The translations under genes were made by a program, and so were the position numbers. The notes beneath the pieces were generated by a model. The model had not been told where the DNA came from. It worked only from the letters and a program-made list of their open reading frames with translations, and did not search any database. From Candidatus Woesebacteria bacterium GW2011_GWB1_33_38 (GTDB lineage Bacteria > Patescibacteriota > Microgenomatia > UBA8517): a stretch of 64,000 nucleotides of DNA. Each line of letters begins with the position of its first letter. Positions within the stretch are counted from its first letter, which is position 1. Location: assembly GCA_000990005.1 (NCBI GenBank), contig LBPF01000001.1, positions 90,315 through 154,314 on the forward strand. Direction: 5' to 3'. Of the stretch, positions 2,806-60,643 are shown one piece after another.

Positions 2806-2813
2806 AACAAAAT

Positions 2814-6890: not shown

Positions 6891-7616
6891 ATGAACTTAA
6901 AAGACAAAATTGCAGTTGTAACTGGTGGAAGTAGTGGAATTGGACAAGCAATTTGTATTGCTTTGGCAAAAGAAGGCTGTAAGGTAGTTTTTACTTATAA
7001 TACAAATGAAAAAGGGGCAGATGAAACTCTTAAAAAGTTGAATGATGATAGTTATAAATTCAAAGTTGATTTACAAAACGAAGAAGATATCAAGAATTTG
7101 TTTGATTTTGTAAAAGAAAAATTTGGGAAATTAGATATCTTAGTAAATAATGCCGGATACAGTAAGAGTGGTGACATTTTTGATCTAAAGTTATGGTCTA
7201 GGGCGTTAAATACCAATGTCTTGGGTTATATTACTGTAATAAAATATGCAAAGAATATTATTAATGAAGGTAAAATTTTAAATATTTCATCAGTTTACGC
7301 CGAAGATAAAGTTGCGTGGCCAGGCAAAGCTGCTGATGCAGCATCAAAATCTGCAATCAATAATTTAACACGAACTATAGCTAAAGAATTTGCTCCAAAA
7401 ATTAATGTAAATGCGATAGCGCCAGGTTATGTTGACACACGACTTTGGGATGAGTTTTCACCAGAGATTAAAAATGAAGCAAAAACAGAGCTCTTGATTG
7501 GAAGGTTGATTAAACCTTCAGAAATTGCAGAGATGGCGACGGCCATTATTAAAAACGACGCAATGACGGGTGAGGTGGTGGTGGTTGATGGTGGATTATC
7601 TCTAAAAACAGTATGA
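6891..7616 (+). CDS. SDR family oxidoreductase (paralogue of 4080-4817)
   Basis: VVTGGSSGIGQA, NNAG, the C-terminal NDAMTGEVVVVDGG motif shared with 4080-4817. Confidence 0.85.
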   Translation: MNLKDKIAVVTGGSSGIGQAICIALAKEGCKVVFTYNTNEKGADETLKKLNDDSYKFKVDLQNEEDIKNLFDFVKEKFGKLDILVNNAGYSKSGDIFDLKLWSRALNTNVLGYITVIKYAKNIINEGKILNISSVYAEDKVAWPGKAADAASKSAINNLTRTIAKEFAPKINVNAIAPGYVDTRLWDEFSPEIKNEAKTELLIGRLIKPSEIAEMATAIIKNDAMTGEVVVVDGGLSLKTV

Positions 7617-8071
7617 AATTAACTGAAAAAGACAAAAAGGAAATACTTACATTTTTAGGAAAACACAAGTTAATGTCCTTAGGAACTTATTACAAAGAAC
7701 CTTGGGCTGCTCCAGTTTATTATCTATTTGACGATGATTTGAATTTTTACTTTGTCAGTGGAACTAAAACTATACACGCTCAAAATATTTTGAAAAATCC
7801 AAAAGTTTCAATAACAATAGCTGATAGTAAACAGAACCCTAATGGTAAAAAGGTAGGTTTTCAAGCAAGGGGTAATGCCACTAAAGTAACTTCTGTCTCA
7901 GAAATTAAAGATATAATTATTGTATGGAATAAAAGAGGGTTTGTTCCTGTAACATATAAAATATTTAAAAAAGTATGGAAATCCAGGTTTTATAAGGTAA
8001 AGTTAAATAGGCTACAGATCTTTGACGAAAATCAAACAGGAGTCAAAGAAGTTAGAAATTGGAAAATATGA
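7613..8071 (+). CDS. pyridoxamine-5'-phosphate-oxidase-like FMN-binding split-barrel protein
   Basis: Size and motif pattern (LMSLGTY...PWAAPVYYLFDDDLNFYFVSG...HAQNILKNPKVSITI) are typical of the PNPOx-like / general stress protein 26 family. Confidence 0.6.
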   Translation: MKLTEKDKKEILTFLGKHKLMSLGTYYKEPWAAPVYYLFDDDLNFYFVSGTKTIHAQNILKNPKVSITIADSKQNPNGKKVGFQARGNATKVTSVSEIKDIIIVWNKRGFVPVTYKIFKKVWKSRFYKVKLNRLQIFDENQTGVKEVRNWKI

Positions 8072-8778
8072 ATTTAAAAGGAAAAGTTGTGGTTGTAACA
8101 GGCTCAAGTGATGGCATAGGCAAGCAAGTTGCTTTAAAACTTGCTAATGAAGGAGTTTTGTTGGCCTTAGTAGCTAGAGATGAAGACAGACTCAAAGAGG
8201 TTAAAAATAAATGTTTAGAATTGGGATCATCCAAAGTTGAAAGTTATTCATGCGATGTTTCAGATAAAGATAAAGTAAAGGAAACAATTAATAAGATTTT
8301 GGTGGATTTTAATACTGTTGACATTTTACTTAATATTGCAGGTGTTTGGCAAGAGTTAAACAAATTAGAAGATATATCCGATGAAGAAATTGATAGTGTT
8401 ATAAACATTAACTTGAAGGGTGTGATCTATGTTACTAAACAATTGTTAAAGTACTTCAAAGAAAGAGATGAAGAAGCAATTATCTTAAACGTCTCGTCCC
8501 GATCTGGTGTAACAACTCAAGAAGGCCAATCGATTTATACAGCTTCCAAATGGGGAGTAACAGGATTCACTGAGGTTTTGAAAACAGATCTTAAAAATTC
8601 AAAAATAAGAGTAGCTACGCTTCACCAAGGAGGAACTAACACTAACCTATTTAGTAAAACAGGCGAGCATTTTAATCAAGATAAGTTTATAAAACCTGAA
8701 GATTTGGCTGACGTTATAGTTTTTATGCTCTCACGTCCTCCTCAAATTTGGCTTCATGATGTAAGAGTCGAGTATTAA
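8059..8778 (+). CDS. SDR family oxidoreductase
   Basis: VVVVTGSSDGIGKQVA, NIAG, YTASK. Confidence 0.8.
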   Translation: MENMNLKGKVVVVTGSSDGIGKQVALKLANEGVLLALVARDEDRLKEVKNKCLELGSSKVESYSCDVSDKDKVKETINKILVDFNTVDILLNIAGVWQELNKLEDISDEEIDSVININLKGVIYVTKQLLKYFKERDEEAIILNVSSRSGVTTQEGQSIYTASKWGVTGFTEVLKTDLKNSKIRVATLHQGGTNTNLFSKTGEHFNQDKFIKPEDLADVIVFMLSRPPQIWLHDVRVEY

Positions 8779-10320
8779 TTGTATAATACCTTCATGGGAA
8801 AGGTTTATATTTTTGTTTTTGGAATATTAATACTTTTGGGGTTGGCTGATTCTGTTTTTTTAACTTGGGAACATTACACGCTAACTTCAATTGGGTGTCC
8901 TATTAGTCCTTGGATAAATTGCTTGGCAGTAACATCTTCTAAATATTCTGAAATATTAGGTATTCCATTATCTCTTTTGGGCTCAATTTATTATATTGTT
9001 TTGTTTTTTTTACTCTTGAAGAAAGAAACAATGTTTAAACACTTCTTTTTGCTGACATCAAGTTTTGGTGTTTTGTTTTCATTTTATCTAATCTATATCC
9101 AAGTTTTTGCGATTGGACTCTTTTGTTTATATTGCTTAGCTTCCGCCTTAATTTCCTTTTTAATATTTGGTTTAACATGGATCTTTTTCAAAAAAGAGTG
9201 GAGTACCTTGGTTGTAGACTCTCTTGGGTATGGTTATAAATTTATCTTAAAACCAATGTTATTTATGGTTGATGCTGAAGTCGTTCATGAAACCATGGTT
9301 AAAATGGGAGAGAGTTTGCCCAAACTAATACTTAATTTATTTAAAAGAATATTTGTTAAAAAATATAAAAACCTAGAGCAAAAAATATTAGACATTAAAT
9401 TTTTAAGCCCAATTGGCCTTGCAGCAGGATTTGATTATGAAGCAAGATTAACCCAAACACTTCCATTTATTGGTTTTGGCTTTCAAACAGTTGGAACCAT
9501 AACTAATATGAGTTATGGTGGTAATCCAAAACCAAGACTAGGTAGACTTCCGCAAAGCAAATCATTATTGGTTAATAAAGGTTTTAAAAATCTGGGTATT
9601 GAACAAACTTTAAAAAAATTATCAGAAAAAAAACTTATTTATCCTGTTGGCATTTCGATCGGAAGAACAAATTCACCTAAACTAGATACTATTGATAAAT
9701 CGATAACTGATATTTTGTCTGCATTTAAATATGCCAAAAATTTTAATATAAATAATGCCTATTACGAACTAAACATAAGCTGTCCTAATATTATTCATGA
9801 TGCTGGAATAAATTTTTACAAATATAATAATCTAGAAAAACTACTTCTTGAGATGGATAAAATTAAATTAACAAAGCCTATATTTGTAAAAATGCCGATT
9901 GATCAAACTGACGGTTATACATTAAAAATGTTAAATGTGATTTCAAGGCACAATATTAAGGGAGTTATATTTGGAAACTTGCAAACAAACAAGAAAAATA
10001 AAGTTCTAGTCAGTTCTGAAGTTAATAAATTTAAGATGGGTAAGTACTCAGGCAAACCAACTTTTGAAGATTCAAATAGATTAATTAAACTCACTTATAA
10101 AAATTTTAAAGATAGATTTATAATAATTGGCTGTGGAGGAGTGTTTAATGCAGATGATGCCTGGGTCAAGTTTGCAAACGGTGCAAGTTTAGTCCAACTC
10201 ATAACTGGAATGATTTTTGAGGGACCTCAACTTACTGCTCAAATAAATAGGGATCTTTCAGAAAGACTTCAAAAAGAAGGCTATAAAAACATTAGTCAGA
10301 TAGTTGGAAGTGCTATATAA
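8779..10320 (+). CDS. pyrD: fusion protein: N-terminal VKOR (vitamin K epoxide reductase) membrane domain + class-2-type dihydroorotate dehydrogenase domain
   Basis: VKOR part: loop cysteines GCPISPWINC, the S-x-ILGIPLSLLGSIYY motif, and an intramembrane CLYC (CxxC). DHODH part aligns along its length to E. coli PyrD: SPIGLAAGFDYEA, GFGFQTVGTITNMSYGGNPKPRLGRL, NKGFKNLG, NISCPN, IIGCGGVFNADDAWVKFANGASLVQLITGMIFEGP. Confidence 0.7.
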   Translation: MYNTFMGKVYIFVFGILILLGLADSVFLTWEHYTLTSIGCPISPWINCLAVTSSKYSEILGIPLSLLGSIYYIVLFFLLLKKETMFKHFFLLTSSFGVLFSFYLIYIQVFAIGLFCLYCLASALISFLIFGLTWIFFKKEWSTLVVDSLGYGYKFILKPMLFMVDAEVVHETMVKMGESLPKLILNLFKRIFVKKYKNLEQKILDIKFLSPIGLAAGFDYEARLTQTLPFIGFGFQTVGTITNMSYGGNPKPRLGRLPQSKSLLVNKGFKNLGIEQTLKKLSEKKLIYPVGISIGRTNSPKLDTIDKSITDILSAFKYAKNFNINNAYYELNISCPNIIHDAGINFYKYNNLEKLLLEMDKIKLTKPIFVKMPIDQTDGYTLKMLNVISRHNIKGVIFGNLQTNKKNKVLVSSEVNKFKMGKYSGKPTFEDSNRLIKLTYKNFKDRFIIIGCGGVFNADDAWVKFANGASLVQLITGMIFEGPQLTAQINRDLSERLQKEGYKNISQIVGSAI

Positions 10321-10329
10321 TATCTTCAT

Positions 10330-11307: not shown

Positions 11308-12331
11308 TATTTTATTTATACTCAAAAGCTTTTTTGTTTGGAGAGTTACTACTTTATTAATTGCTTATCTAGCAATTCTATTTGTCCCGAGATTAAGTGA
11401 TAACTTTTTGGGGGGGATGATATCTGACTATAACAGTAATCCTTTTCTCTGGTCTTGGGCCAATTTTGACGGAGAACATTATTTGTCAATTGCAGTAAAT
11501 GGTTATAAAGATTTACAGCAAGCCTTTTTTCCGCTTTATCCATTATTGATTCGTTTTTTTGGTGGCTCAATTGTTTCTGCCTTACTAATTTCCAACTTAA
11601 GTCTCCTAATTTCTCTTGTTGGTTTATACAAACTAATTGAGTTAGATTATGATCAAAAGGTTGCAAGATTATCCATAATATTACTTTTAATGTTTCCATC
11701 ATCTTTCTTTTTTGGCGCAGTATACACAGAAAGTTTATTTTTAGCTCTAGTTGTCTGGGGTTTTTACTTTTTCAGGAAAAGGAAATTTTTATTAGGAGTA
11801 GTACTTGGTAGTTTATCTTCATTAACTCGTATTATTGGAATTATTCCGATTGGTGTTTTTGGATACATGGGCTATTCAAAATATAAATGGGGAGATGCTT
11901 TAGCGCTTTTTCATAATCAGATAAACTTTGGAGAACAGAGAAGTGATCATCTAATTATGTTACCTCAAGTTTTTTACCGATATTTTGTCAAAATACTACC
12001 TAGTTTATCGTGGAATTACTTTCCAATTGTGTTTACTACACTTCTTGAAATTGTGGTAGCCATAGCATTTTTATTAGTTATTATTTATTCATTTAAAAAG
12101 ATTAGACTTGAGTATTGGTTATTTTTAACAATTGGTTATTTAATACCAACGCTTACAGGTAGTTTTTCTTCTATGTTAAGATACGTAATTGTTCTGTTTC
12201 CAGCTTTTATATATTTGGCAACAAATATTGTTAAATTTAAGAAACAGGCACAAATATTCATTTTTACTACAATGCTTATCTTGCTTGTAATAACTGAAGC
12301 ATTATTTATGAGGGGGTATTTTGTCTCATGA
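11294..12331 (+). CDS. polytopic membrane glycosyltransferase, PIG-V / GPI-mannosyltransferase-2-like (Mannosyl_trans2 family, GT76-like)
   Basis: FDGEHYLSIAVNGYKDLQQAFFPLYPLLI matches the remembered PIG-V family core. Multi-TM throughout. Confidence 0.5.
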   Translation: MQKSSILFILKSFFVWRVTTLLIAYLAILFVPRLSDNFLGGMISDYNSNPFLWSWANFDGEHYLSIAVNGYKDLQQAFFPLYPLLIRFFGGSIVSALLISNLSLLISLVGLYKLIELDYDQKVARLSIILLLMFPSSFFFGAVYTESLFLALVVWGFYFFRKRKFLLGVVLGSLSSLTRIIGIIPIGVFGYMGYSKYKWGDALALFHNQINFGEQRSDHLIMLPQVFYRYFVKILPSLSWNYFPIVFTTLLEIVVAIAFLLVIIYSFKKIRLEYWLFLTIGYLIPTLTGSFSSMLRYVIVLFPAFIYLATNIVKFKKQAQIFIFTTMLILLVITEALFMRGYFVS

Positions 12332-14960: not shown

Positions 14961-14961
14961 T

Positions 14962-15921
14962 ATGAGAATATTAATAACAGGAGGAGCAGGATTCATTGGA
15001 TCACATTTAGTTAAAAGACTTCTTTTAGAGAACCACAAAATAGTGGTGATTGATAATTTTGACCCTTTTTACTCAATTGAAGATAAAAAGGAAAATATTA
15101 AAGTTTTTAAAAGAGATAAAAACTTCAAGTTATTTAATGTTGATATTACAGACAGAAAAAAGATTGCAAACATATTTTTGAAACATAAATTTGATCAAGT
15201 TATACATTTAGCTGCTAAAGCAGGAGTTAGGCCTTCAATTGAAGATCCTGTGGCTTACTTTAAAACCAATATTGAAGGCACGTTAACACTTTTAGAAGCC
15301 TGCAAAGATATTAAGTTAAAAAACTTTATATTTATTTCTTCCTCATCAGTTTACGGTGAAAGACCGAAAGTTCCGTTTTCCGAAGATGATAAGGCAGAAA
15401 ATCCAATTTCTCCCTATGGGTTAACAAAACTCTCAGGTGAAAAACTTTTAAAAATTTATAGCAACCTCTATTCGATTCCTTCAACCGCTATAAGGTTGTT
15501 TACCGTTTATGGACCAAGACAGAGACCTGATCTTGCAATAAGAAAGTTTATAGATAAAATTTATAACGCTAATGAAATTGAAATGTTTGGGGATGGCTCG
15601 ACTATGAGAGACTACACTTATGTCGACGACATTGTCGATGGCATTGTTAAGTGTGTATATCAGCCGTTTAAGTTTGAAGTAATTAATCTAGGTAATTCAA
15701 GCCCCATAAAACTTAGCGAGTTAATTAAAATAATCGAAAAAAGCTTGAGTAAAAAGGCAATAATTATTAAAAAACCAAATCAAATTGGAGATGTCTCTAG
15801 GACCTACGCAAATATCAGAAAAGCTAAAAAACTTCTTAATTGGAAACCGAATTTTAAGTTTGAAAAAGGTATATCTATGATGATAAAATGGTACCTAATA
15901 AAATATGCAAAAAAAGATTGA
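14962..15921 (+). CDS. NAD-dependent sugar-nucleotide epimerase/dehydratase (UDP-sugar 4-epimerase-like)
   Basis: MRILITGGAGFIGSHL (GxxGxxG); YGLTK (YxxxK) catalytic dyad. Confidence 0.85.
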   Translation: MRILITGGAGFIGSHLVKRLLLENHKIVVIDNFDPFYSIEDKKENIKVFKRDKNFKLFNVDITDRKKIANIFLKHKFDQVIHLAAKAGVRPSIEDPVAYFKTNIEGTLTLLEACKDIKLKNFIFISSSSVYGERPKVPFSEDDKAENPISPYGLTKLSGEKLLKIYSNLYSIPSTAIRLFTVYGPRQRPDLAIRKFIDKIYNANEIEMFGDGSTMRDYTYVDDIVDGIVKCVYQPFKFEVINLGNSSPIKLSELIKIIEKSLSKKAIIIKKPNQIGDVSRTYANIRKAKKLLNWKPNFKFEKGISMMIKWYLIKYAKKD

Positions 15922-16855: not shown

Positions 16856-16863
16856 ATTCACTT

Positions 16864-24835: not shown

Positions 24836-24837
24836 TT

Positions 24838-26966: not shown

Positions 26967-28822
26967 TTAATAAAATAATTGTTTTTATTACGTTTTTAGT
27001 CCTGCTCTTTTTCTTAAAAGAAAGTCTTTTGCTTATTGATCCATTTGAAAGACCAGGTGCTTTTTTGGAACATATGAATGAGATTCCATTATTAATATCA
27101 GTTTTGATCGGGATTGCTGGAGTTTTTGCAGTATTTAGTTATTTATTTATTAACAAATTAAACAAAAAATATTGGATTTATGCTTTATTAATTGTGCTGT
27201 TTTTATCTCTTTCAGCAAAGTTTCTTTACACACTGGTTTTACCAGTTACGAACGATGAGGGGGCTTATCTTTATGATTCTCTCTTGATTAGCCAAGGTTC
27301 ATCTCCTTTTCATTTTTCCTTTGCTAGATCTCCAGCCTTTGTTTATCCGTTAGCACTATTTATTAAAACTTTTGGATCTAGCTTATTTATTGGGAGAAGT
27401 TTTTCAATAGTTGTATCTATTGGTATAAGTTTTATTTTATTCTTAATAGGTAAATTTATAAAAAATGAAAGGTTGGGATTTTTAAGTTCTTCTTTTTTTC
27501 TTGTATTTTCTCCGATGGTTTATGACACTATTTATGTTCATACACAGACTATAACTATATTTTATGTACTTGTTTCTTTTTATTTCTTACTTAGATCAAT
27601 TAAAGATGGTAAAAATTTAAATATACTGATTTCTTACTTTTTTATTTCATTAGGTATTTTGACTAGAGAAATGGTCATATTCTATTTACCCCTATGGGCT
27701 GTGCTCACTTTTTTCCCGATTAGTAAAAAGAATTTTGCTCATAAACTAATTAAAACGGTTTTAGGATGCTCAATGTTTACTCTCACTTATTTGGGTTTAT
27801 GGTCTTTAATTGGTCTAAGTATTGGATTCGAAAAAGTTTTTTATAATCTTATGGCGCTTGCCACTGCTAGGCAAGGTCACACTAGCTATATTGTATCTAT
27901 CGTGTCTAAACTTGAGCTTGTTAGATTTAATTTGGTTTACGCCTTTGGAATATTATCTCTTTTTACTACTTCTGCATTCAGTTTTATTTTAGGTAAATTA
28001 ATAAAACATAAAAATATTCTGTTGGGTTTTGTTTCTATTGTACTGATCCTTTTCGTTAAAAGTGTTCCCAATACGCTTGTATCAATAGGTATGGATAATT
28101 ATTATCTTTTTTTTGTTGTGATGGCTGTTTTGTTTAGTTGCTCTTTGATCTTATACTTATCCAAGAATTCCATAAAAGACACGCAAAAAAGCACTTCATT
28201 GATATATTTAATCGGTTTGTTCGCTGTCCCATTCTCTTTTTACCTTTTCTATTATCCGAATTTTCAAACAGAGTATTGGATAGAATTTCTAGTACCGCTT
28301 ATCATGGTGATTTCATTCATGTTTAATCATCAAATTATAAAATTTGATTACAAACGTAATATTTGGTTGCTTTTAACACTATTGATTGTGGTCTCTGTAA
28401 ACACATTCTTATCTTTTTGGGTTACTCTTAAACCACAAAGAGGAACATACTCAATAACAAATTTGATAGAGATCAGAGACCATCTTATAAAAAATTACCC
28501 CAAGAGAGAGATCTTTACTGGTGCGTCGATTATACCTTTTGTTTCTGGAAATAGCCTAGCTTTAAACATTACTCATCCTGCTATATATTCTTACCAAGAT
28601 ATTGATAGTAGAATAATTGATAAACTTTTTCCCTCAGAGAAAGAGATTGTTGATTATTTGGCTGTTAATAAAATACAAATTGTAGTAATTGAAAAATTTA
28701 CAACAGACTCTTATTTTAGTAAAAGTGATATGATAAAAAATTATATATATGCAAATTATTCAGAAGAAAAGATAATTGGTTCTGAAAACCCCTTAATATT
28801 ATTAACCAAGAACGAAAAATGA
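26963..28822 (+). CDS. GT-C superfamily glycosyltransferase (module copy B)
   Basis: First-loop VTNDEGAYLYDSLLISQG. About 13 TM helices. Paralogous to 30982-32727. Confidence 0.6.
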   Translation: MINKIIVFITFLVLLFFLKESLLLIDPFERPGAFLEHMNEIPLLISVLIGIAGVFAVFSYLFINKLNKKYWIYALLIVLFLSLSAKFLYTLVLPVTNDEGAYLYDSLLISQGSSPFHFSFARSPAFVYPLALFIKTFGSSLFIGRSFSIVVSIGISFILFLIGKFIKNERLGFLSSSFFLVFSPMVYDTIYVHTQTITIFYVLVSFYFLLRSIKDGKNLNILISYFFISLGILTREMVIFYLPLWAVLTFFPISKKNFAHKLIKTVLGCSMFTLTYLGLWSLIGLSIGFEKVFYNLMALATARQGHTSYIVSIVSKLELVRFNLVYAFGILSLFTTSAFSFILGKLIKHKNILLGFVSIVLILFVKSVPNTLVSIGMDNYYLFFVVMAVLFSCSLILYLSKNSIKDTQKSTSLIYLIGLFAVPFSFYLFYYPNFQTEYWIEFLVPLIMVISFMFNHQIIKFDYKRNIWLLLTLLIVVSVNTFLSFWVTLKPQRGTYSITNLIEIRDHLIKNYPKREIFTGASIIPFVSGNSLALNITHPAIYSYQDIDSRIIDKLFPSEKEIVDYLAVNKIQIVVIEKFTTDSYFSKSDMIKNYIYANYSEEKIIGSENPLILLTKNEK

Positions 28823-29580
28823 AAATATCTAAATTAAAATTACAGGAAGTAAAACTACACAAAAAACTAGCAAAATCCTACTATTGGGTGCGTGAAAAAA
28901 ATTCTCATTATAAGTATTTTAATAATTTGTGGATAGAACAAATACAAACCATGCTTCCAAAAAAGAAGTATCAAAATACATTGGATTTAGGTTGTGGCAC
29001 CGTTGAATTTTATGAATTAATTAAGGATAAACTCAATTCAAATTATTTAGGGGTTGATTTGTCTCCAGACATGCTTAATATTGGTAGGAAAAAATACAAA
29101 AACATACGTTTGCTAGAAGCCGACGCGGAAAATTTACAAATAAAAGATAGTACCTTTGATTTAATAATCGGACGAGGTATTATCCATCACTTACCTGAAC
29201 CTGTAAAAGGGTGTGAAGAAGCTTATCGAGTGCTCAAAAAGGGCGGATATTTTATTGTTTCCGAACCTTATAGTAATATTTTTCTCAAATTGATTCGTAA
29301 GATTTATTATAGATTATCAAATCATTTTTCAGATACTCATAAATCGTTTTCTGGAGATGAACTTTCAAATTTATTAATTAAATCTGGATTCGTAATTAAA
29401 GAGATCGGTTTTTGGGGAGTTCTATCTTTTCCATTTGCTTTCCCCGACATCTTGCCTACTTATAAGTTTGTTCCACTTCCCATATTTAAGCTCTTAGTCC
29501 AGCTAGATAAGATAATTGTCAAAATACCATTTATCAAAAAAATGGCTTGGCACATAATAATTCTTTGTAAAAAAAGGTAA
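28819..29580 (+). CDS. class I SAM-dependent methyltransferase
   Basis: LDLGCGTVEF; FDLIIGRGIIHHL. Confidence 0.8.
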   Translation: MKISKLKLQEVKLHKKLAKSYYWVREKNSHYKYFNNLWIEQIQTMLPKKKYQNTLDLGCGTVEFYELIKDKLNSNYLGVDLSPDMLNIGRKKYKNIRLLEADAENLQIKDSTFDLIIGRGIIHHLPEPVKGCEEAYRVLKKGGYFIVSEPYSNIFLKLIRKIYYRLSNHFSDTHKSFSGDELSNLLIKSGFVIKEIGFWGVLSFPFAFPDILPTYKFVPLPIFKLLVQLDKIIVKIPFIKKMAWHIIILCKKR

Positions 29581-31007
29581 TGAAAAAATACATATGGCTT
29601 ATTGTGATTATTTTTATAGCAATTTTGTTAAGGTTGTTATTAATTACCAGTATCCAAGGAACAAGTGGGGGAGATGCTTTTGAGTTTTTGTTGATTGCAA
29701 AAAGAATCATTTCATTTGAGAATCCGTTTTTGGATGTTAAAAGACTTCCATTTTTCCCGATAACATTAATCCCTTCATATTTTTTAAATATTGATGGAAT
29801 AATGTGGGGGAGAATTGTAAATACAATATTTGCAGGTCTATCCCTGTATTATATGTATTTAATCGGGGATAAGTTTAAGATTTCAAAATTTTTGAATTAT
29901 TTATCTTTAATTCTTTTTACATTTTCTTCTGTTTATCTCTTTTATTCACTTAGACCTCTTTCTTCTTCTCTTTTTACACTTCTGTTTCTATCGTCAATTT
30001 ACTATACATTAGAGAGCAAAAAAACATCTATTTTATTTGCGTTTACGTCTCTTGGTCTTTTGTCTATGACAAGGCATGAAGGATTTCTGATTTCGCTAAT
30101 AATATTTTTATATTATTTTTGGTCAACTAAAAGAAAAGATTTAATTGTCAAATTTTCAAAACCTTGCTTAATCTATTTAATTTTAGTTCTTCCATTTTTT
30201 TTAAACAACTATATTTATCATAAAAACTTTCTATATTTAGGTTACTTAGACGATGGAGGAGGGTTATATATACCCAAAAATTATGAAAACCTTGCCTCTA
30301 ATTTGAAAATAATGTCATTCGCAATTTATTCCACCTGGGGGAATATAAGAATTTTTAAAACTAACATTAATTTACTCAACATTTTATTTAGCTCAACTGT
30401 TATTTTTATTGCCTTAGGATTAATTGATTATCTTAAAAAAATAAACAAACAAAAAATGCTTGCTTTGATTCTTTTAATCTCACAATTAATAATTGCTTTA
30501 TGGTTTCAACCTAGTGGTAGATATATTCAACATCTAACACCATTTTTGTCGACCCTTTTGTTATTAGGTATAAGTAAATTTTCAAAAGTTATTCTCCCGA
30601 TACTTATAACAGGTGCTTTAGTTACAACTTCGTTGTATACAGTCAAGCTTAAAATAGATGAATTTAATTTTGATACAAAAGGCCAAAAAGAATTTACTGA
30701 TTCTATTAAATATTTAAAAGTCAGATCAGGTATAGTGGCCATTGAGCCTGATAGGGATTATACTCAAAGTTACATTGCAAAATATTATTTGGGAGACAGT
30801 CGAATCAAATTTATAGGGGGTGATTTTCTTGGTCGTGGTTTGATCGACAGTAATCCTAGATCCCAAATTAATTGGCTTCAAAGTGAAAATGTCAAATATA
30901 TTGTTGACTCACCTAAATTTGATGATTTTACGTTTTTAGGCGACAATAGATATCAAGGTCAGTTTATAATAAAAACAAATTATGTATATGAAGTTATTAA
31001 AAAATAA
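29580..31007 (+). CDS. polytopic membrane protein, putative GT-C-like (module copy A')
   Basis: SGGDAFEFLLIAKRII...FLDVKRLPFFPITLIP...MTRHEGFLISL. Confidence 0.5.
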   Translation: MKKYIWLIVIIFIAILLRLLLITSIQGTSGGDAFEFLLIAKRIISFENPFLDVKRLPFFPITLIPSYFLNIDGIMWGRIVNTIFAGLSLYYMYLIGDKFKISKFLNYLSLILFTFSSVYLFYSLRPLSSSLFTLLFLSSIYYTLESKKTSILFAFTSLGLLSMTRHEGFLISLIIFLYYFWSTKRKDLIVKFSKPCLIYLILVLPFFLNNYIYHKNFLYLGYLDDGGGLYIPKNYENLASNLKIMSFAIYSTWGNIRIFKTNINLLNILFSSTVIFIALGLIDYLKKINKQKMLALILLISQLIIALWFQPSGRYIQHLTPFLSTLLLLGISKFSKVILPILITGALVTTSLYTVKLKIDEFNFDTKGQKEFTDSIKYLKVRSGIVAIEPDRDYTQSYIAKYYLGDSRIKFIGGDFLGRGLIDSNPRSQINWLQSENVKYIVDSPKFDDFTFLGDNRYQGQFIIKTNYVYEVIKK

Positions 31008-32727
31008 AAAAGTTTTACTTGTTGGTTTTATTGTCTTATTGGGTTTGTTTATACATTTGTATTACGCAAACAATTTACCATTAACAAACGATGAAAGCTC
31101 GTATCTTTATGATACCTTAAACATCAGGAATGGATTAATACCTCTTAAAGATTTTCTAACCAAGTCATTACCATTTATTTATTTATTAACTTTATCTCAA
31201 AGTATTTTTGGCAACTCAATTTTCGTGGGTAGATTGTTAATGATTGTTATTTCCCTTTTTACATCACTATTACTTTATTTTTTTGCTAGGGATATGTTGG
31301 GTAAGAAAATTGCAATTATTTCAGGTCTAATTTATTGGGCGTTTCCATTAATTGCTGCATATACTACACAGATACATACAGAACCGCTTCAAGTGTTGTG
31401 TGTTATCCTGTCATATTTATTTTTATTTAGATTTAGAGTTTCAAAAAAATTACATCATTTACTCTTCTCCGCGATAGCCATGACAATTGCCTTTTTTGTT
31501 AGACAATCAAGCATAGTACTAATACTACTACCGGCACTTTTTGAAATGTTTAGTAAAATTTTATTTAAAAGTAAATTTTTAAAATTACCTATCTATTTTT
31601 TTGCAATTACCTCTGTATTAATATCACTAGTCACAATATTTGCTTACAATTATTTTGGAGGTGGCAGAACACTTGAACTTGTTGGTGGTGGGGCGGCTAA
31701 TTTGGCAATTCAAGAAAAAGGATCATTGGGTATAAAAGAAATTATAACCTATCCTTTTAAATTTGGTCTCGAGGCGATTGTTGAAGCAAATAATCTATTT
31801 AGAGATGGTTTAATTTTATTGTCTTTTGCACTGCTTACATTATTCTATTATTTCTTAGCCAAAAGAAATAAAATTGAAGATAAATTTAAGACTTATGGTT
31901 TTGCCTCTATATTTTTGATATTTATTTTTTCAATGTACCAATTTCGTTATCATCTCTTTTCCGGATTGTGGAAAGTAGACATGATTCCACAAGTAAATTT
32001 ACTATTCTTGACTATTGTTTTAACGTTGTTAACTTTTTCTCACGTGACGCATCGGAATTCACTTAGCCCTAAATATTTTAAGATTTTTAATTCCCAATTT
32101 TATAAATTTTTAATTTTATGGATAATTATACTTTTGGGAATATATTTATTGTGGATTAAATTCCGATCACCATATTTGATTGAGTTCTTTCCTCCTCTCC
32201 TTATTCTTTTTTCAATTGGCATAACATCTTTTATTGAAGACATAAATTTAATTACAAATAAAGTTTATAAAAAAAGCATCAGATTAATATTAATTTTATT
32301 CACAATAGTTTCATTTACAACTTCTTTTTATATGAATAAGAATATATACTTCACAGGTTTGTTTTTACCAGCAGAAGTTGAAGAAATAACAAATTATATT
32401 AAGTCTGAATCGCCCAGTAAAGATACTATCCTGACAGCTTTAGCAATACTCCCATATTTATCGGACGATGAGGTAATTTATAACATTTCTCATCCAGCTT
32501 GGTATGGATATACTAATATCAGGCGAGATGTATTTTTATTATATTTTCCTCCTGTTGAAAAATTATTAGAGTTACTTAAAAATAGAAGGGTTAAATTCAT
32601 TATTAGAGAACCATTTACAGATGCATCTTATTTTAGATATAAAGATATACGAGAACAGATGGAGGTAAATTATTCACTTGTAAAAACTGTTGGAAGGGCC
32701 ACTATATATAAGATTAAAGATGAATAA
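30982..32727 (+). CDS. GT-C superfamily glycosyltransferase (module copy B')
   Basis: LTNDESSYLYDTLNIRNG first-loop motif. Multi-TM. Confidence 0.6.
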   Translation: MYMKLLKNKKVLLVGFIVLLGLFIHLYYANNLPLTNDESSYLYDTLNIRNGLIPLKDFLTKSLPFIYLLTLSQSIFGNSIFVGRLLMIVISLFTSLLLYFFARDMLGKKIAIISGLIYWAFPLIAAYTTQIHTEPLQVLCVILSYLFLFRFRVSKKLHHLLFSAIAMTIAFFVRQSSIVLILLPALFEMFSKILFKSKFLKLPIYFFAITSVLISLVTIFAYNYFGGGRTLELVGGGAANLAIQEKGSLGIKEIITYPFKFGLEAIVEANNLFRDGLILLSFALLTLFYYFLAKRNKIEDKFKTYGFASIFLIFIFSMYQFRYHLFSGLWKVDMIPQVNLLFLTIVLTLLTFSHVTHRNSLSPKYFKIFNSQFYKFLILWIIILLGIYLLWIKFRSPYLIEFFPPLLILFSIGITSFIEDINLITNKVYKKSIRLILILFTIVSFTTSFYMNKNIYFTGLFLPAEVEEITNYIKSESPSKDTILTALAILPYLSDDEVIYNISHPAWYGYTNIRRDVFLLYFPPVEKLLELLKNRRVKFIIREPFTDASYFRYKDIREQMEVNYSLVKTVGRATIYKIKDE

Positions 32728-33631
32728 TATGTTTTGGAATAACAAAAAAGTTTTTTTAACTGGTGGGAATGGTTTTGTTGGTAGTAAATTATCCCAAGCC
32801 CTTAAAAAGAAAAAAGCTGAAGTATTTTTATATGATGGCGATATTAGAAATTATCAGGATTTATTTGATCAGTTTGTAAAGTCTAAAACTACAATTATTT
32901 ACCATCTTGCGGCCCAGTCACTAATTGAAGTGGGAAAAATAAGTCCGATTGAGACTTTTGAGATAAATATAAAAGGGACTTGGAATATTCTTGAAGTAGC
33001 GAGAAAGGCGGGAGTTGAAAAAATTGTTATAGCTTCAACCACTCATGTTTACGGTGATAATCCACACCTACCATACAAAGAGGAATATTACCCACAACCT
33101 TCAAGACCTTATGAAACATCAAAAGCTTCGGCTGATTTAGTTTCACAATGTTACGCAGATACTTATAATTTACCTGTTGAAATATCTAGAATGGTAAATT
33201 TATACGGACCAGGTGATCTAAATACATCAAGATTGTTTCCAAAAATAATTAGTCAATTACTTAACAATATAAACCCTGTAATTTTTGATATAGGCGCTGT
33301 ACGAGATTTTTTATATATTGATGACGCAATTGAAGGATATTTAAGGCTAGGGCAGGTAAAACTTCCAAATGTAAAAAGAGCCCGTGTTATCAATTTTGGT
33401 TCGGGTAAGCCAATTGATATAACTACACTTGTTGACAAAATAATTAAATTATATGGAAACAAAAAGTTACATTTGTTAACCAAAGCTGTTCCTGACGAAA
33501 GAGAAAAAGAAATTAAAAAACAATATGTATCTATTGCTAAAGCAAAGAAACTTCTTGATTGGACTCCAAAGGTCAGTTTAGATCAGGGAATAAAAAAAAC
33601 TATAGCTTTTTATGTGAAACAAAAAAGTTAA
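32720..33631 (+). CDS. NAD-dependent epimerase/dehydratase family protein
   Basis: VFLTGGNGFVGSKL; YETSK. The ATG at 32720/32729 is preferred over the long ORF start at 32690. Confidence 0.8.
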   Translation: MNNMFWNNKKVFLTGGNGFVGSKLSQALKKKKAEVFLYDGDIRNYQDLFDQFVKSKTTIIYHLAAQSLIEVGKISPIETFEINIKGTWNILEVARKAGVEKIVIASTTHVYGDNPHLPYKEEYYPQPSRPYETSKASADLVSQCYADTYNLPVEISRMVNLYGPGDLNTSRLFPKIISQLLNNINPVIFDIGAVRDFLYIDDAIEGYLRLGQVKLPNVKRARVINFGSGKPIDITTLVDKIIKLYGNKKLHLLTKAVPDEREKEIKKQYVSIAKAKKLLDWTPKVSLDQGIKKTIAFYVKQKS

Positions 33632-54836: not shown

Positions 54837-54840
54837 AAAT

Positions 54841-60639: not shown

Positions 60640-60643
60640 AAAA

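What the first reader, a model, noticed from the sequence alone, without database searches (positions are those of the whole stretch)
6891..33631. About 27 co-directional, translationally coupled genes form a GT-C-centred glycan-assembly super-operon
From 6891 to 33631 every gene is on the + strand. Junctions are mostly 4-nt ATGA overlaps or spacers of 10 nt or less. Across the full 64 kb there are about 13 polytopic GT-C-type transferases (ArnT/PMT-like, with DE first-loop motifs) next to their lipid-linked donor synthases (GT2 DPM1/GtrB-like at 15905, 33628, 37521). There are also 9 GT4s, 5 methyltransferases, 3 epimerases, flippases (Wzx at 38530 and a UPF0104 protein at 21102), ManC, and a PGT initiator. 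GT-C enzymes act on the extracytoplasmic face using polyprenyl-P-sugars. The density suggests a multi-step periplasmic or surface glycosylation machine (protein O-glycosylation or a lipoglycan) that combines a Wzx/Wzy-style lipid-linked oligosaccharide route with sequential GT-C decoration. More than ten GT-C paralogues in one locus is highly unusual. The array and the motifs are seen directly in the sequence; the pathway logic is inference.
Basis: partly seen in the sequence, partly recalled or inferred. Interest (0 to 1): 0.7.

Follow-up and report, generated by a model that had tools for sequence, protein, structure and literature searches.

The report
Giant GT-C glycosylation island in Woesebacteria
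An ultra-small groundwater bacterium (Candidatus Woesebacteria) carries a conserved gene island of more than 64 kb with 14 membrane sugar-transferases of the outward-acting (GT-C) type in this window and 4 more just upstream; each part is a known kind, but the number packed together is unusual.

Summary
Twelve of the 24 junctions are exact ATGA overlaps.

The window holds 14 GT-C-type transferases:
- 12 pass Pfam cut-offs for PMT or PMT_2.
- 11294 is sub-threshold.
- 29580 has no Pfam hit, but it is a 30%-identical paralogue of 25530 and its AlphaFold model matches GT-C structures in its top 45 hits.

Four more GT-Cs lie within 10 kb upstream of the window.

The source is Candidatus Woesebacteria GW2011_GWA1_33_30/GWA2_33_28 from Rifle groundwater.

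The core gene order is kept in three diverged relatives, whose fusion and 29580 orthologues are 48-66% identical. Eleven loci from other CPR bacteria hold only 1-3 polytopic candidates per roughly 20 kb.

The parts match known systems: polyprenyl-phosphate-sugar synthase plus flippase plus GT-C, beside a Wzx/Wzy-type module.

The "single super-operon" reading is only partly supported:
- Co-direction is window-wide (56 of 59 ORFs).
- The stated boundaries are arbitrary.
- Unrelated genes are embedded in the array.
- The acceptor is unknown.

Verdict: a real feature, a new variant of a known kind, of moderate interest.

The parts
43..1236 (+). GT-C (PMT_2). This is the C-terminal 397 aa of a 458-aa gene that starts about 140 nt before the window.
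   Evidence: Pfam PMT_2 26.8 bits. 29% identical over 407 aa to ORF 1224. Full gene seen in L005 8637-10013.
1224..2765 (+). GT-C (PMT/PMT_2), 513 aa, DE after TM1 (..LNWDEVAAG..)
   Evidence: PMT_2 54.1 bits, PMT 35 bits. Motif seen.
3173..4078 (+). GT2 glycosyltransferase with no TM segment at the stricter hydropathy threshold
   Evidence: Glycos_transf_2 67.8 bits
10330..11307 (+). GT4 glycosyltransferase
   Evidence: Glycos_transf_1 66.5 bits
11294..12331 (+). Probable small GT-C (345 aa, about 9 TM, FDGEHY motif in loop 1)
   Evidence: PMT_2 23.0 bits, below the 26.1 cut-off. 31% identical over 123 aa to ORF 35987, E 3.5e-5.
12328..13545 (+). FAD-dependent oxidoreductase of NCBIfam family PRK07233 (Pfam Amino_oxidase hit); role in the pathway unknown
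   Evidence: NF005560 361 bits, above the 252 cut-off
13542..14960 (+). GT-C, 472 aa, DE motif (..PIYSDEITW..)
   Evidence: PMT_2 30.6 bits, PMT 22.9 bits. Motif seen.
14962..15921 (+). Extended-SDR nucleotide-sugar epimerase/dehydratase (GalE/RmlB-like)
   Evidence: Epimerase 214 bits. GalE and RmlB models each score 204.6 bits, below their equivalog cut-offs.
15905..16855 (+). Polyprenyl-phosphate glycosyltransferase of the GtrB/ArnC/PgfS type, with 2 C-terminal TM segments
   Evidence: Full-length match to ArnC (9hwj, E 3.3e-50) and GtrB (5ekp, E 2.7e-41). ArnC and PgfS NCBIfam models score 207 and 167 bits, below cut-offs. TM segments seen.
16864..18000 (+). GT4 glycosyltransferase (paralogue of 22034)
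   Evidence: 32% identical over 392 aa to 22034.
17997..19570 (+). Two SAM-dependent methyltransferases (17997-18722 and 18719-19570)
   Evidence: Methyltransf_11 91.9 and 75.5 bits
19567..21105 (+). GT-C, 512 aa, DE motif (..LTADESTW..)
   Evidence: PMT_2 43.2 bits. Motif seen.
21102..22037 (+). UPF0104 / LPG_synthase_TM membrane protein; candidate flippase for lipid-linked sugar
   Evidence: PF03706 119 bits. The flippase role was predicted for this family by Makarova et al. 2015, PMC5898192.
22034..23179 (+). GT4 glycosyltransferase
   Evidence: Glycos_transf_1 138.7 bits
23176..24138 (+). Extended-SDR epimerase/dehydratase
   Evidence: Epimerase 147 bits
24128..25533 (+). Two SAM-dependent methyltransferases (24128-24835 and 24838-25533)
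25530..26966 (+). GT-C, 478 aa, SGGD loop-1 motif; paralogue of 29580
   Evidence: PMT 25.8 bits, above the 22.7 cut-off. 30% identical over 447 aa to 29580.
26963..28822 (+). GT-C, 619 aa, TNDE motif; paralogue of 30982
   Evidence: PMT_2 37.2 bits. N36, D37 and E38 are invariant in the orthologue alignment A3.
28819..29580 (+). SAM-dependent methyltransferase
   Evidence: Methyltransf_11 81.5 bits
29580..31007 (+). GT-C of a subfamily that no Pfam model matched in this scan, 475 aa, SGGD motif
   Evidence: No Pfam hit. AF2 model pLDDT 84, pTM 0.85. The top 45 Foldseek PDB hits are all GT-C enzymes: AglB, STT3, PglB, ArnT, ALG12 and others.
30982..32727 (+). GT-C, 581 aa, TNDE motif
   Evidence: PMT_2 58.9 bits
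32690..33631 (+). Extended-SDR epimerase/dehydratase
   Evidence: Epimerase 147.6 bits
33628..36000 (-). Fusion protein, 790 aa. The N-terminal GT2 domain is a polyprenyl-phosphate glycosyltransferase. The C-terminal part is a GT-C with an HDE motif after the first TM.
   Evidence: Glycos_transf_2 101.5 bits plus PMT 35.9 and PMT_2 35.3 bits. AF2 pLDDT 83. The N-terminal domain matches ArnC, GtrB and DPMS (E 5e-11); the C-terminal domain matches ALG12, ALG9 and STT3.
35987..37561 (+). GT-C, 524 aa
   Evidence: PMT_2 56.6 bits
37521..38501 (-). GT2 of the DPM1/AglJ type with one C-terminal TM; candidate polyprenyl-phosphate-hexose synthase. Absent at the corresponding position in L003, L004 and L018.
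   Evidence: Glycos_transf_2 71 bits. AglJ model E 6e-29. TM seen. Absence seen.
38530..39810 (+). Wzx-type (MOP superfamily) flippase
   Evidence: Polysacc_synt 89.7 bits
39807..40646 (+). GT2 glycosyltransferase, soluble
40630..41847 (+). GT-C, 405 aa (PYRD motif near the N-terminus)
   Evidence: PMT_2 31.7 bits
41829..42926 (+). GT4 glycosyltransferase
42923..43765 (+). GT2 with a C-terminal hydrophobic stretch read as about 2 TM, ending in an ATGA overlap with the next GT-C; a possible fourth lipid-sugar synthase
   Evidence: Glycos_transf_2 111.5 bits. TM segments seen.
43762..45057 (+). GT-C, 431 aa, DE motif (..LWLDEATT..)
   Evidence: PMT_2 35.9 bits. Motif seen.
45041..46566 (+). GT4 (45041-46111) and GNAT acetyltransferase (46108-46566)
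48513..50232 (+). GT4 (48513-49643) and WcaF-like hexapeptide O-acetyltransferase (49636-50232)
50730..51659 (+). GT2 glycosyltransferase
51622..52965 (+). Wzy_C-domain polytopic protein: a polymerase, ligase or O-oligosaccharyltransferase
   Evidence: Wzy_C 46.9 bits, above the 31.7 cut-off
52958..54367 (+). GT-C, 469 aa
   Evidence: PMT_2 27.0 bits, PMT 22.9 bits, both just above their cut-offs
54360..57937 (+). GNAT (54360-54836), GT4 (54841-56046), GT2 (56006-56893), and a GT4 split into two ORFs (56893-57414 and 57407-57937)
58446..61297 (+). GT4 (58446-59597), ManC mannose-1-phosphate guanylyltransferase (59497-60639), and a small monotopic phosphoglycosyltransferase initiator (60644-61297)
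   Evidence: The PGT matches EPS_sugtrans at E 4e-76.
61278..63248 (+). DUF4012 protein with one N-terminal TM and a large extracytoplasmic domain; function unknown. It is the last gene of the island, just before RecO.
   Evidence: DUF4012 69.6 bits. TM seen.
6891..10320 (+). Embedded genes with no evident glycan role: FabG-like SDR (6891), PNPOx-like protein (7613), SDR (8059), VKOR-PyrD fusion (8779)

Best explanation
The window is most of a conserved cell-envelope glycan island of a Candidatus Woesebacteria genome. I propose that the island works in two linked parts.

(1) A cytoplasmic-face, lipid-pyrophosphate-linked route, mostly at 38.5-61.3 kb. A small phosphoglycosyltransferase (60644) starts an oligosaccharide on polyprenyl phosphate. 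Soluble GT4 and GT2 enzymes extend it, and acetyltransferases (and possibly the methyltransferases) modify it. Wzx (38530) flips it. The Wzy_C protein (51622) polymerises it or transfers it to its final acceptor.

(2) An unusually large extracytoplasmic route. Three or four GT2 enzymes load single sugars onto polyprenyl monophosphate: 15905, the N-terminal domain of the 33628 fusion, 37521, and possibly 42923. A flippase, probably the UPF0104 protein 21102 and/or Wzx, moves these donors outward. Then 14 highly divergent GT-C enzymes (18 counting the four just upstream) each add one sugar or linkage to the growing glycan outside the membrane.

Shown: the gene families, two predicted folds, the conserved order, and the acidic residue in the first loop.
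Inferred: that the two parts feed one product, which protein is the flippase, which sugars are used, and what the acceptor is. I favour a surface heteroglycan or glycoprotein glycan of this bacterium, which I assume has a single membrane.

The array probably grew by old duplications of a 'GT-C + epimerase + GT4 + two methyltransferases' module and of a GT-C pair.
For: - Pfam assigns 12 ORFs to PMT or PMT_2 above threshold. Two more are linked by paralogy.
- The model of 29580 (pLDDT 84) matches only GT-C structures in its top 45 hits.
- The fusion model (pLDDT 83) matches ArnC/GtrB/DPMS in its N-terminal part and ALG12/ALG9/STT3 in its C-terminal part.
- ORF 15905 aligns over its full length with ArnC and GtrB at E 3e-50 and 3e-41.
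- ORF 37521 and the fusion's GT2 domain score best against AglJ, ArnC and PpgS, which are lipid-phosphate-sugar synthases.
- All 13 GT-Cs whose N-terminus lies in the window have an Asp, or Asp-Glu, in the first hydrophilic stretch near the N-terminus (after TM1 where one is predicted). It is invariant in the orthologue alignments: D32 in A2, and N36-D37-E38 in A3.
- N-termini are short, lack acidic residues and mostly carry Lys/Arg. In the fusion, a single TM separates the cytoplasmic GT2 domain from the HDE loop. Both place the loop outside.
- The PGT, Wzx, Wzy_C and ManC are present.
- Gene order from 18719 to 45057 is kept in L003, L004 and L018, with orthologues 34-66% identical.
- Reciprocal best paralogue pairs show module duplication.
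- The logic matches published three-component systems (PMC11127046) and the predicted UPF0104 flippase role (PMC5898192).
Against: - There is no biochemical, glycan or transcript evidence.
- No GtrA-type flippase (PF04138) is present, and flippase roles for UPF0104 and Wzx are only predictions.
- Sugar identities could not be inferred; every epimerase scores below the equivalog cut-offs.
- Nothing ties the Wzx/Wzy module and the GT-C block to one product.
- Several GT-C Pfam scores are marginal: 43, 52958 and 25530 are within a few bits of the cut-off, and 11294 is below it.
- Mobile or unrelated genes break up the island (HicAB, Pif1, an IS element, VKOR-PyrD). This fits a patchwork as well as it fits a single machine.
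- The rarity estimate rests on 11 comparison loci plus one more, not on a census.
Confidence: 0.6

Rival explanations
1. Direct protein O-glycosylation. Most of the GT-Cs are PMT-like or Pgf-like protein glycosyltransferases. They would put single sugars or short chains from polyprenyl-phosphate-sugars onto Ser/Thr-rich regions of secreted proteins, S-layer proteins or pilins, rather than decorating a polysaccharide.
For: - Pfam PMT (protein O-mannosyltransferase) hits in 1224, 13542, 19567, 25530, the fusion and 52958.
- ORF 15905 scores E 5e-49 against the PgfS model.
- The order GT-C, epimerase, GT2 at 13542-16855 recalls the streptococcal pgf operon, which encodes PgfS, PgfE, PgfM1 and PgfM2 (PMC12041528).
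- The Wzy_C protein could be an O-oligosaccharyltransferase.
Against: - PMT scores are weak and are equalled or beaten by PMT_2, a catch-all family.
- PgfM1 and PgfM2 are YfhO-type GT-Cs, and no YfhO hit was found in the window.
- No candidate Ser/Thr-rich acceptor gene lies in the island.
- Fourteen to eighteen distinct protein glycosyltransferases would be without precedent.
Confidence: 0.2
2. A patchwork of several independent loci. The window would be a chromosomal hot-spot where separate glycan systems have accumulated (for example a wall polymer, a capsule or EPS, and protein glycosylation). They would look like one operon only because this compact genome puts nearly all genes on one strand with overlapping ends.
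For: - 56 of 59 ORFs are on + and GC skew is positive throughout.
- 4-nt overlaps also occur outside the region.
- The island is interrupted by HicAB plus Pif1, an IS element with 15-nt inverted repeats, a DUF3800 remnant, a VKOR-PyrD gene and a 23S-IVS protein gene.
- Two genes point the other way, at 33628 and 37521.
- ORF 37521 is missing in the relatives.
Against: - The core order from 18719 to 45057, including the inverted fusion gene, is conserved across four lineages with orthologues about 34-66% identical. This argues for selection on the block as a unit.
- There is only one PGT, one Wzx and one Wzy_C for the whole window.
- Three or four donor synthases serve 14-18 GT-Cs, so donors must be shared.
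Confidence: 0.15
3. A lipoglycan built almost wholly outside the cell, like mycobacterial lipomannan/lipoarabinomannan or arabinogalactan. The GT-Cs would act in sequence as polymerising and branching enzymes on a lipid-anchored or wall-anchored primer.
For: - GT87-family and MptA_B-family GT-Cs lie just upstream of the window.
- ManC plus DPM1-like synthases are present.
- Many GT-Cs draw on few donor synthases.
- GT4 enzymes could make the cytoplasmic primer, as PimA and PimB do (this comparison is from my own knowledge).
Against: - None of the ORFs scanned hit a UbiA-type phosphoribosyltransferase or a DprE1-type (FAD_binding_4) family.
- No PIM-type acyltransferase or inositol genes were seen.
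- The upstream GT87 and MptA_B hits are partly sub-threshold.
- Nothing identifies a lipid anchor.
Confidence: 0.05

Closest known systems
Three-component extracytoplasmic glycosylation systems (GtrA/GtrB/Gtr* of Shigella and Salmonella; the pentofuranose systems of Kelly et al. 2024, PMC11127046)
   Same: A GT2 enzyme charges polyprenyl phosphate with one sugar. A flippase exports the donor. A GT-C adds the sugar to a glycan outside the membrane. These systems act on top of a Wzx/Wzy-built or ABC-built polymer. ORF 15905 is a full-length GtrB/ArnC homologue.
   Different: Known systems have one GT-C, and occasionally a few in what Kelly et al. call 'more elaborate systems'. Here there are 14 in 64 kb and 18 in about 75 kb. 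There is no GtrA or SMR-type flippase. One synthase is fused to its GT-C. Five methyltransferases are interleaved. The host is a CPR bacterium.
Streptococcal Pgf and GtrB/PgtC2 protein O-glycosylation (PMC12041528)
   Same: A GtrB-type GT2 (PgfS), an epimerase (PgfE) and GT-C enzymes are encoded together and glycosylate extracytoplasmic Ser/Thr-rich regions in a Gram-positive bacterium. ORF 15905 matches the PgfS model at E 5e-49. An epimerase and a GT-C adjoin it.
   Different: PgfM1, PgfM2 and PgtC2 are YfhO-family GT-Cs, whereas the GT-Cs here are PMT_2-type or match no Pfam model. The score against PgfS is far below the equivalog cut-off (167 vs 500 bits). No acceptor adhesin genes lie in the locus.
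Mycobacterial cell-envelope GT-C network (EmbA/B/C, AftA-D, MptA/B, PimE, Pmt, with Ppm1 and PpgS as donor synthases). Named from my own knowledge, apart from the PDB and NCBIfam matches cited.
   Same: Many divergent GT-Cs use polyprenyl-phosphate sugars to build and branch a large envelope glycan outside the membrane. Some are clustered. The 29580 model matches AftD, AftA, AftB and EmbA/EmbB/EmbC structures. The fusion's GT2 domain matches PpgS at E 3e-15.
   Different: None of the ORFs scanned hit UbiA-type or DprE1-type families, so the decaprenyl-phospho-arabinose pathway is not evident. The GT-Cs lack Emb-size C-terminal domains. From memory, the M. tuberculosis cluster holds about six GT-Cs in about 35 kb, which is a lower density.
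Wzx/Wzy-dependent O-antigen, capsule and S-layer-glycan loci
   Same: A Bac_transf initiator, GT4 and GT2 enzymes, acetyltransferases, a Wzx (Polysacc_synt) flippase, a Wzy_C protein and a nucleotide-sugar gene (ManC) are all present.
   Different: No Wzz or PCP chain-length regulator was detected; a DUF4012 protein sits next to the initiator. GT-C genes are interleaved with the module at 40630, 43762 and 52958.
Archaeal neighbourhood of AglD-like GT2, UPF0104 and a PMT/STT3-like enzyme (Makarova et al. 2015, PMC5898192)
   Same: A UPF0104 membrane protein sits next to a PMT/STT3-like GT-C and a GT2, and the authors predict it to be the flippase of a glycosylation pathway. Here the order is 19567 (GT-C), 21102 (UPF0104), 22034 (GT4).
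   Different: That case is archaeal and N-glycosylation-linked, and UPF0104 is often fused to the GT2. Here the host is bacterial, UPF0104 stands alone, and there are many GT-Cs.
ER-lumenal ALG3/9/12/6/8/10 steps of eukaryotic N-glycan assembly
   Same: A series of GT-C enzymes, each adding one sugar from a dolichyl-phosphate sugar to a lipid-linked oligosaccharide after it has been flipped. ALG12 and ALG9 are among the best structural matches.
   Different: Those enzymes are eukaryotic and dispersed in the genome, and their product is transferred by OST. No STT3, PglB or AglB family member was identified in the window.

Membership tests
GT-C fold glycosyltransferase superfamily | Polytopic membrane protein (about 8-13 TM) | tested here: met
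   A hydropathy scan gives 6-14 TM segments for all 14 candidates.
GT-C fold glycosyltransferase superfamily | Sequence membership in a GT-C Pfam family | tested here: met
   12 of 14 pass the PMT or PMT_2 gathering score. ORF 11294 is below it (23.0 vs 26.1 bits). ORF 29580 has no hit.
GT-C fold glycosyltransferase superfamily | GT-C three-dimensional fold | tested here: met
   Tested for two proteins only. For the 29580 model, the top 45 PDB matches are all GT-C. The C-terminal domain of the fusion matches ALG12, ALG9 and STT3.
GT-C fold glycosyltransferase superfamily | Conserved acidic residue in the first extracytoplasmic loop, facing outside | tested here: inconclusive
   An Asp or Asp-Glu is present near the N-terminus, after TM1 where one is predicted, in all 13 assessable proteins, and it is invariant in orthologues. 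Orientation rests on short acid-free N-termini and on the fusion architecture, not on a topology predictor or experiment.
GT-C fold glycosyltransferase superfamily | Use of a polyprenyl-phosphate-linked donor | not testable with these tools
   The only support is the co-location of three or four candidate donor synthases.
Gtr-type three-component system | GtrB-like GT2 polyprenyl-phosphate glycosyltransferase with C-terminal TM segments | tested here: met
   ORF 15905 matches GtrB (5ekp) at E 2.7e-41 and ArnC at E 3.3e-50 over its full length, and has 2 C-terminal TM segments.
Gtr-type three-component system | GtrA-family small flippase (PF04138) | tested here: not met
   No PF04138 hit in any ORF of at least 100 aa, and there is no free intergenic space for a missed gene. 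UPF0104 and Wzx are the only candidates.
Gtr-type three-component system | A serotype-specific GT-C transferase | tested here: met
   There are 14 GT-Cs (see the rows above).
Wzx/Wzy-dependent glycan pathway | Initiating phosphoglycosyltransferase | tested here: met
   ORF 60644: Bac_transf 198 bits; EPS_sugtrans E 4e-76.
Wzx/Wzy-dependent glycan pathway | Wzx flippase and Wzy polymerase | tested here: met
   ORF 38530: Polysacc_synt 89.7 bits. ORF 51622: Wzy_C 46.9 bits. Whether 51622 is a polymerase, a ligase or an O-oligosaccharyltransferase cannot be told from sequence.
Wzx/Wzy-dependent glycan pathway | Chain-length regulator (Wzz/PCP) | tested here: not met
   No Wzz-family hit appears in any Pfam scan. 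A DUF4012 protein sits beside the PGT.
Arn (L-Ara4N lipid A modification) pathway | ArnA, ArnB, ArnD and ArnE/F together with ArnC and ArnT | tested here: not met
   ORF 15905 scores 207 bits against ArnC, whose equivalog cut-off is 529. No ArnA, ArnB, ArnD or ArnE/F was found. ORF 1224 matches ArnT in the PDB only at E 0.087.
PMT (GT39) protein O-mannosyltransferases | PMT domain with the loop-1 DE motif, plus MIR and PMT_4TMC domains | tested here: inconclusive
   Six proteins pass the PF02366 cut-off with low scores (22.9-35.9 bits). No MIR or PMT_4TMC domains were found. From my own knowledge, bacterial Pmt also lacks MIR domains.
Single operon (transcription unit) 6891-33631 | One promoter, no internal terminators, one transcript | tested here: inconclusive
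   Consensus scans give promoter-like and terminator-like sites at chance frequency. No expression data are available.

The most novel reading that the evidence does not exclude
Woesebacteria of this lineage build most of a complex, methylated surface glycan outside the cell. A bacterial 'assembly line' of 14-18 sequentially acting GT-C enzymes would draw on three or four polyprenyl-phosphate-sugar donors. Some of those donors would be methylated on the lipid carrier before being flipped, and one would be made and consumed by a single fused synthase-transferase. This would be a prokaryotic counterpart of the ER-lumenal ALG series or of mycobacterial arabinomannan synthesis. It would have arisen independently by module duplication in an ultra-small CPR bacterium, and it would probably define the cell surface that meets hosts and phages.
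Probability: 0.25. Interest if true: 0.75.

Novelty: new variant of a known kind. Interest (0 to 1): 0.5.

Why it matters
Almost nothing is known experimentally about the cell surface of CPR/Patescibacteria. A recent pili study that I read calls glycosylation in Saccharibacteria 'unexplored' (PMC11623550).

A conserved island of more than 64 kb devoted to glycan synthesis is a large investment for a bacterium of a group known for small genomes. It points to a surface glycoconjugate that is central to the organism's biology, for example in attachment, phage evasion or envelope integrity.

The island also offers material for enzymology:
- 14-18 very divergent GT-Cs in one genome, including a subfamily that no Pfam model matched.
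- A natural fusion of a donor synthase to a GT-C.

It extends the known 'three-component' logic from single side-chain additions to what may be a multi-step extracytoplasmic pathway.

Tried and rejected
- An exact look-up of the fusion protein with its longest-ORF TTG start found nothing. The true start is probably downstream. ORF 22034 located the source contigs instead.
- Promoter and terminator scans were uninformative, with counts equal to shuffled sequence.
- A PDB sequence search with GT-C 1224 gave only ArnT at E 0.087. Fold comparison was needed.
- I tried to infer the sugars from NCBIfam. All three epimerase/dehydratases, the SDRs and the GT2s score below every equivalog cut-off, so no sugar can be assigned.
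- I guessed that the 720-830-aa relatives of the 29580 subfamily were GT2-GT-C fusions. I rejected this. Three of them have no Pfam hit at all, and a profile comparison with the Bacteroidales fusion P0103 was insignificant.
- Arn-pathway membership is rejected, because ArnA, ArnB, ArnD and ArnE/F are absent.
- Literature searches for GT-C arrays or glycosylation loci in CPR, Woesebacteria or Patescibacteria found nothing relevant. This is absence in the searched library only.
- The genome-contig scan returned only 11 loci, and none from this lineage. The rarity estimate is therefore a small sample.

Full report
**Source and layout**

Exact protein look-ups place the window on contigs of up to 225,879 bp. 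These contigs come from Candidatus Woesebacteria bacterium GW2011_GWA1_33_30 / GWA2_33_28, in Rifle groundwater metagenomes (PRJNA268031). A related source record for one protein is named 'Microgenomates group'.

G+C is about 0.31, and GC skew is positive in every 2-kb bin. Of 59 ORFs of at least 100 aa, 56 lie on the + strand. The three exceptions are 33628-36000, 37521-38501 and a transposase at 46714-48195.

**Checking the observation**

From 6891 to 33631 there are 25 + strand genes, not about 27.

The 24 junctions break down as follows:

| Junction type | Number |
|---|---|
| Exact ATGA 4-nt overlap | 12 |
| Spacer or overlap of -1 to 9 nt | 6 |
| Longer overlap (11-38 nt), dependent on the longest-ORF start | 6 |

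Elsewhere in the window, 6 of about 27 same-strand junctions are 4-nt overlaps. Tight packing and one-strand bias are therefore properties of the whole window. Given 95% + strand genes, a run of 25 is not improbable in itself (about 0.3). The stated limits are also not natural boundaries, as shown below.

**Gene content**

GT-C candidates:
- Twelve ORFs pass the PMT or PMT_2 gathering score: 43, 1224, 13542, 19567, 25530, 26963, 30982, 33628(-), 35987, 40630, 43762 and 52958.
- ORF 11294 scores 23.0 bits, below the 26.1 cut-off. It is 31% identical to 35987 over 123 aa.
- ORF 29580 has no Pfam hit. It is 30% identical to 25530 over 447 aa.

An AlphaFold model of 29580 was built from six sequences (pLDDT 84, pTM 0.85). 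In the PDB its top 45 hits are all GT-C enzymes, including AglB, STT3, PglB, ArnT (TM-score 0.64), ALG12, AftD and DPY19. The window therefore holds 14 GT-Cs.

All paralogue pairs are at most about 30% identical over long alignments, so none is a recent duplicate.

ORF 43 is the tail of a 458-aa gene that begins before the window. The 10 kb upstream hold four more GT-C-type genes, of GT87, MptA_B/GT87-like, PMT_2 and PMT/PMT_2 type. Two of these are sub-threshold in my own scan. There is also a 608-aa polytopic protein with no Pfam hit. That makes 18 GT-Cs in about 75 kb.

The other counts are also confirmed:
- eight intact GT4 genes plus one split GT4
- five SAM-dependent methyltransferases
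- three extended-SDR epimerase/dehydratases
- Wzx at 38530 and UPF0104 at 21102
- a Wzy_C protein at 51622
- ManC and a small Bac_transf initiator
- three acetyltransferases and a DUF4012 protein

**First-loop motif and topology**

A literal Asp-Glu follows TM1 in seven proteins: 1224, 13542, 19567, 26963, 30982, 43762 and the fusion.

The other six whose N-terminus lies in the window carry a single Asp in other motifs:
- SGGD in 25530 and 29580
- SD in 35987
- FDGEHY in 11294
- PYRD in 40630
- an Asp-containing stretch (..PVADWHSWRQAD..) in 52958

These residues are invariant in the orthologue alignments: D32 in A2, and N36-D37-E38 in A3.

N-termini are short, lack acidic residues and mostly carry Lys/Arg. 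In the fusion, a single membrane helix separates the cytoplasmic GT2 domain from the HDE loop. Both features place the loop outside the membrane. This remains inference, since no dedicated topology predictor was available.

**Donor synthases**

- ORF 15905 aligns end to end with ArnC (E 3.3e-50) and GtrB (E 2.7e-41). It has the two C-terminal membrane helices of that type.
- ORF 33628(-) is a 790-aa fusion. Its model has pLDDT 83. The N-terminal domain matches ArnC, GtrB and dolichyl-phosphate-mannose synthase (E about 5e-11). The rest matches ALG12, ALG9 and STT3.
- ORF 37521(-) is a DPM1/AglJ-like GT2 with one C-terminal helix. It is missing in the relatives.
- ORF 42923 is a GT2 with a C-terminal hydrophobic stretch read as about two helices. 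It overlaps the next GT-C by ATGA and is a possible fourth synthase.

No GtrA-family flippase is present. The candidates are the UPF0104 protein and Wzx. A flippase role for the UPF0104 family was predicted from its archaeal neighbourhoods with PMT/STT3-like and AglD-like genes (PMC5898192).

**Conservation and rarity**

Three contigs from other samples repeat the core order. They are L003, L004 and L018; their fusion and 29580 orthologues are 48-66% identical to the window's, and other GT-C orthologues are as low as 34%. The shared order is:

methyltransferase, GT-C, UPF0104, GT4, epimerase, two methyltransferases, GT-C, GT-C, methyltransferase, GT-C, GT-C, epimerase, inverted fusion, GT-C, Wzx, GT2, GT-C, GT4, GT2, GT-C.

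The block is therefore under selection as a unit.

A scan of species-representative genomes with a profile of the 30982/26963 subfamily found 11 loci. Nine are titled Saccharibacteria or Andersenbacteria, and two only 'bacterium' or 'uncultured bacterium'. Comparison of polytopic candidates per locus:

| Loci | Size | Detectable GT-Cs | Polytopic proteins (at least 300 aa, at least 6 TM) |
|---|---|---|---|
| 11 genome-contig loci (mostly other CPR) | 8-21 kb | 1-2 | 1-3 |
| This lineage (L001-L006) | 15-22 kb | 4-8 | 6-7 |

A locus around another GT2-PMT_2 fusion has three or four GT-Cs plus a GtrA.

The density is therefore unusual in this small sample, but I could not run a census. Literature searches found no description of such arrays in CPR bacteria.

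**How the array arose**

Reciprocal best paralogue pairs point to old segmental duplications:
- 25530 with 29580, and 26963 with 30982 (a GT-C pair, duplicated)
- 13542 with 19567 (GT-C)
- 14962 with 23176 (epimerase)
- 16864 with 22034 (GT4)
- 17997 with 24128 and 28819 (methyltransferase)

This pattern suggests that a GT-C pair, and a 'GT-C + epimerase + GT4 + two methyltransferases' module, were each duplicated long ago.

**What it most likely does**

The parts fit two known schemes placed side by side.

The first is a Wzx/Wzy-type route: initiator, GT4 and GT2 enzymes, acetyltransferases, Wzx and a Wzy_C protein.

The second is the 'three-component' extracytoplasmic route. In it a GT2 makes a polyprenyl-phosphate sugar, a flippase exports it, and a GT-C adds it to a glycan outside the membrane (PMC11127046). 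In Gram-positive bacteria the same logic glycosylates proteins (PMC12041528).

Here the second route is expanded to 14-18 GT-Cs fed by three or four synthases.

I consider it most likely (about 0.6) that the island makes a complex surface heteroglycan or glycoprotein glycan, and that much of its elaboration happens outside the membrane. The rivals are:
- direct protein O-glycosylation by most of the GT-Cs (0.2)
- a patchwork of independent loci (0.15)
- a lipomannan-like lipoglycan (0.05)

Sequence alone cannot settle the acceptor or the sugars. Every epimerase and GT2 scores below the NCBIfam equivalog cut-offs.

**Limits of the 'super-operon' reading**

The run from 6891 to 33631 contains two FabG-like SDRs, a PNPOx-like protein, a VKOR-PyrD fusion and a PRK07233-type FAD oxidoreductase, none with an evident glycan role.

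Elsewhere, mobile or unrelated genes punctuate the island:
- HicAB and a Pif1 helicase
- an IS element with perfect 15-nt inverted repeats
- a DUF3800 remnant with its Rfam RNA motif
- a 23S-IVS protein gene

Promoter and terminator scans are at chance level. A single transcription unit is therefore unproven.

**Verdict**

The components belong to known kinds. The scale, the synthase-GT-C fusion, the interleaved methyltransferases and the CPR host make it a new variant of a known kind. Interest is moderate at 0.5. It would rise if a census confirms that the density is exceptional, or if a multi-step extracytoplasmic assembly line is demonstrated.

Noticed in passing
window 8779-10320 (+): A fusion of a VKOR domain (residues 14-134, 4 TM) to a class-2, quinone-dependent dihydroorotate dehydrogenase (residues about 153-512; pyrD_sub2 219 bits, above the 200 cut-off). 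The VKOR domain sits in front of the PyrD core, where class-2 enzymes normally have a membrane-association segment (my own knowledge). This is an odd redox coupling for a CPR bacterium, a group that lacks a respiratory chain (PMC11665869).
   Followed up: partly
window 33628-36000 (-) and the hits: The fusion's GT2 domain is about 50% identical to GT2 domains from many phyla. Among the top 120 hits, 49 are fused to a SAM methyltransferase domain, 23 carry a PMT_2 GT-C domain (one of them a fragment without the GT2 part), and 4 of the 49 also carry GtrA. This hints that the polyprenyl-phosphate sugar made by this GT2 subfamily is methylated, which would explain the five methyltransferases interleaved with the GT-Cs here.
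   Followed up: partly
window 46686-48278: An insertion sequence: a DDE_Tnp_1 transposase (46714-48195, minus strand) flanked by perfect 15-nt inverted repeats at 46686-46700 and 48264-48278. It is inserted between a GNAT gene and a GT4 gene of the island.
   Followed up: yes
window 4819-6877: A HicA toxin (4819-5037, -) and HicB antitoxin (5030-5278, -), followed by a Pif1-family helicase (5333-6877, +). The same arrangement is present in other assemblies of this population (L005, L006).
   Followed up: partly
window 58101-58419: An Rfam DUF3800-II RNA motif (58353-58419, minus strand, 61 bits vs a gathering score of 43.2). It lies beside an 89-aa ORF (58101-58370, +) that begins MYIFIDESGTG, which resembles a truncated DUF3800 protein. 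Both sit in the 508-nt gap between two GT4 genes.
   Followed up: partly
window 56893-57937: A GT4 gene split into two ORFs that overlap by 8 nt. The N-terminal Glyco_transf_4 half is at 56893-57414 and the C-terminal Glycos_transf_1 half is at 57407-57937. This could be a frameshift, a pseudogene or an assembly error.
   Followed up: no
window 25530-26966 and 29580-31007; These two GT-Cs belong to a subfamily with conserved SGGD, RPLS, SMTRHEGF and QPxxRY motifs. Pfam barely detects 25530 and does not detect 29580. A profile search finds 1482 cluster representatives at E<=1e-3. Many are 720-830 aa with an unexplained N-terminal extension of about 210-250 aa, which had no Pfam hit in the three that I scanned.
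   Followed up: partly
window 2781-3176 (+): A 23S rRNA intervening-sequence protein (PF05635, 116.6 bits) is encoded between a GT-C and a GT2, with no rRNA gene nearby.
   Followed up: no
L005 3111-4937 (-), upstream of the window: A 608-aa polytopic membrane protein with a C-terminal soluble domain and no Pfam hit. It lies among the four upstream GT-C genes, next to a RhuM-family gene and a Peptidase_S51 gene. It may be a further, unrecognised GT-C.
   Followed up: partly
window 12328-13545 (+): An FAD-dependent oxidoreductase of NCBIfam family PRK07233 (named 'hypothetical protein'; Pfam Amino_oxidase hit). It scores 361 bits against a cut-off of 252 and overlaps GT-C genes on both sides, by 4 nt each. 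Its substrate is unknown; it could act on the polyprenol carrier or on a lipid-linked sugar.
   Followed up: no
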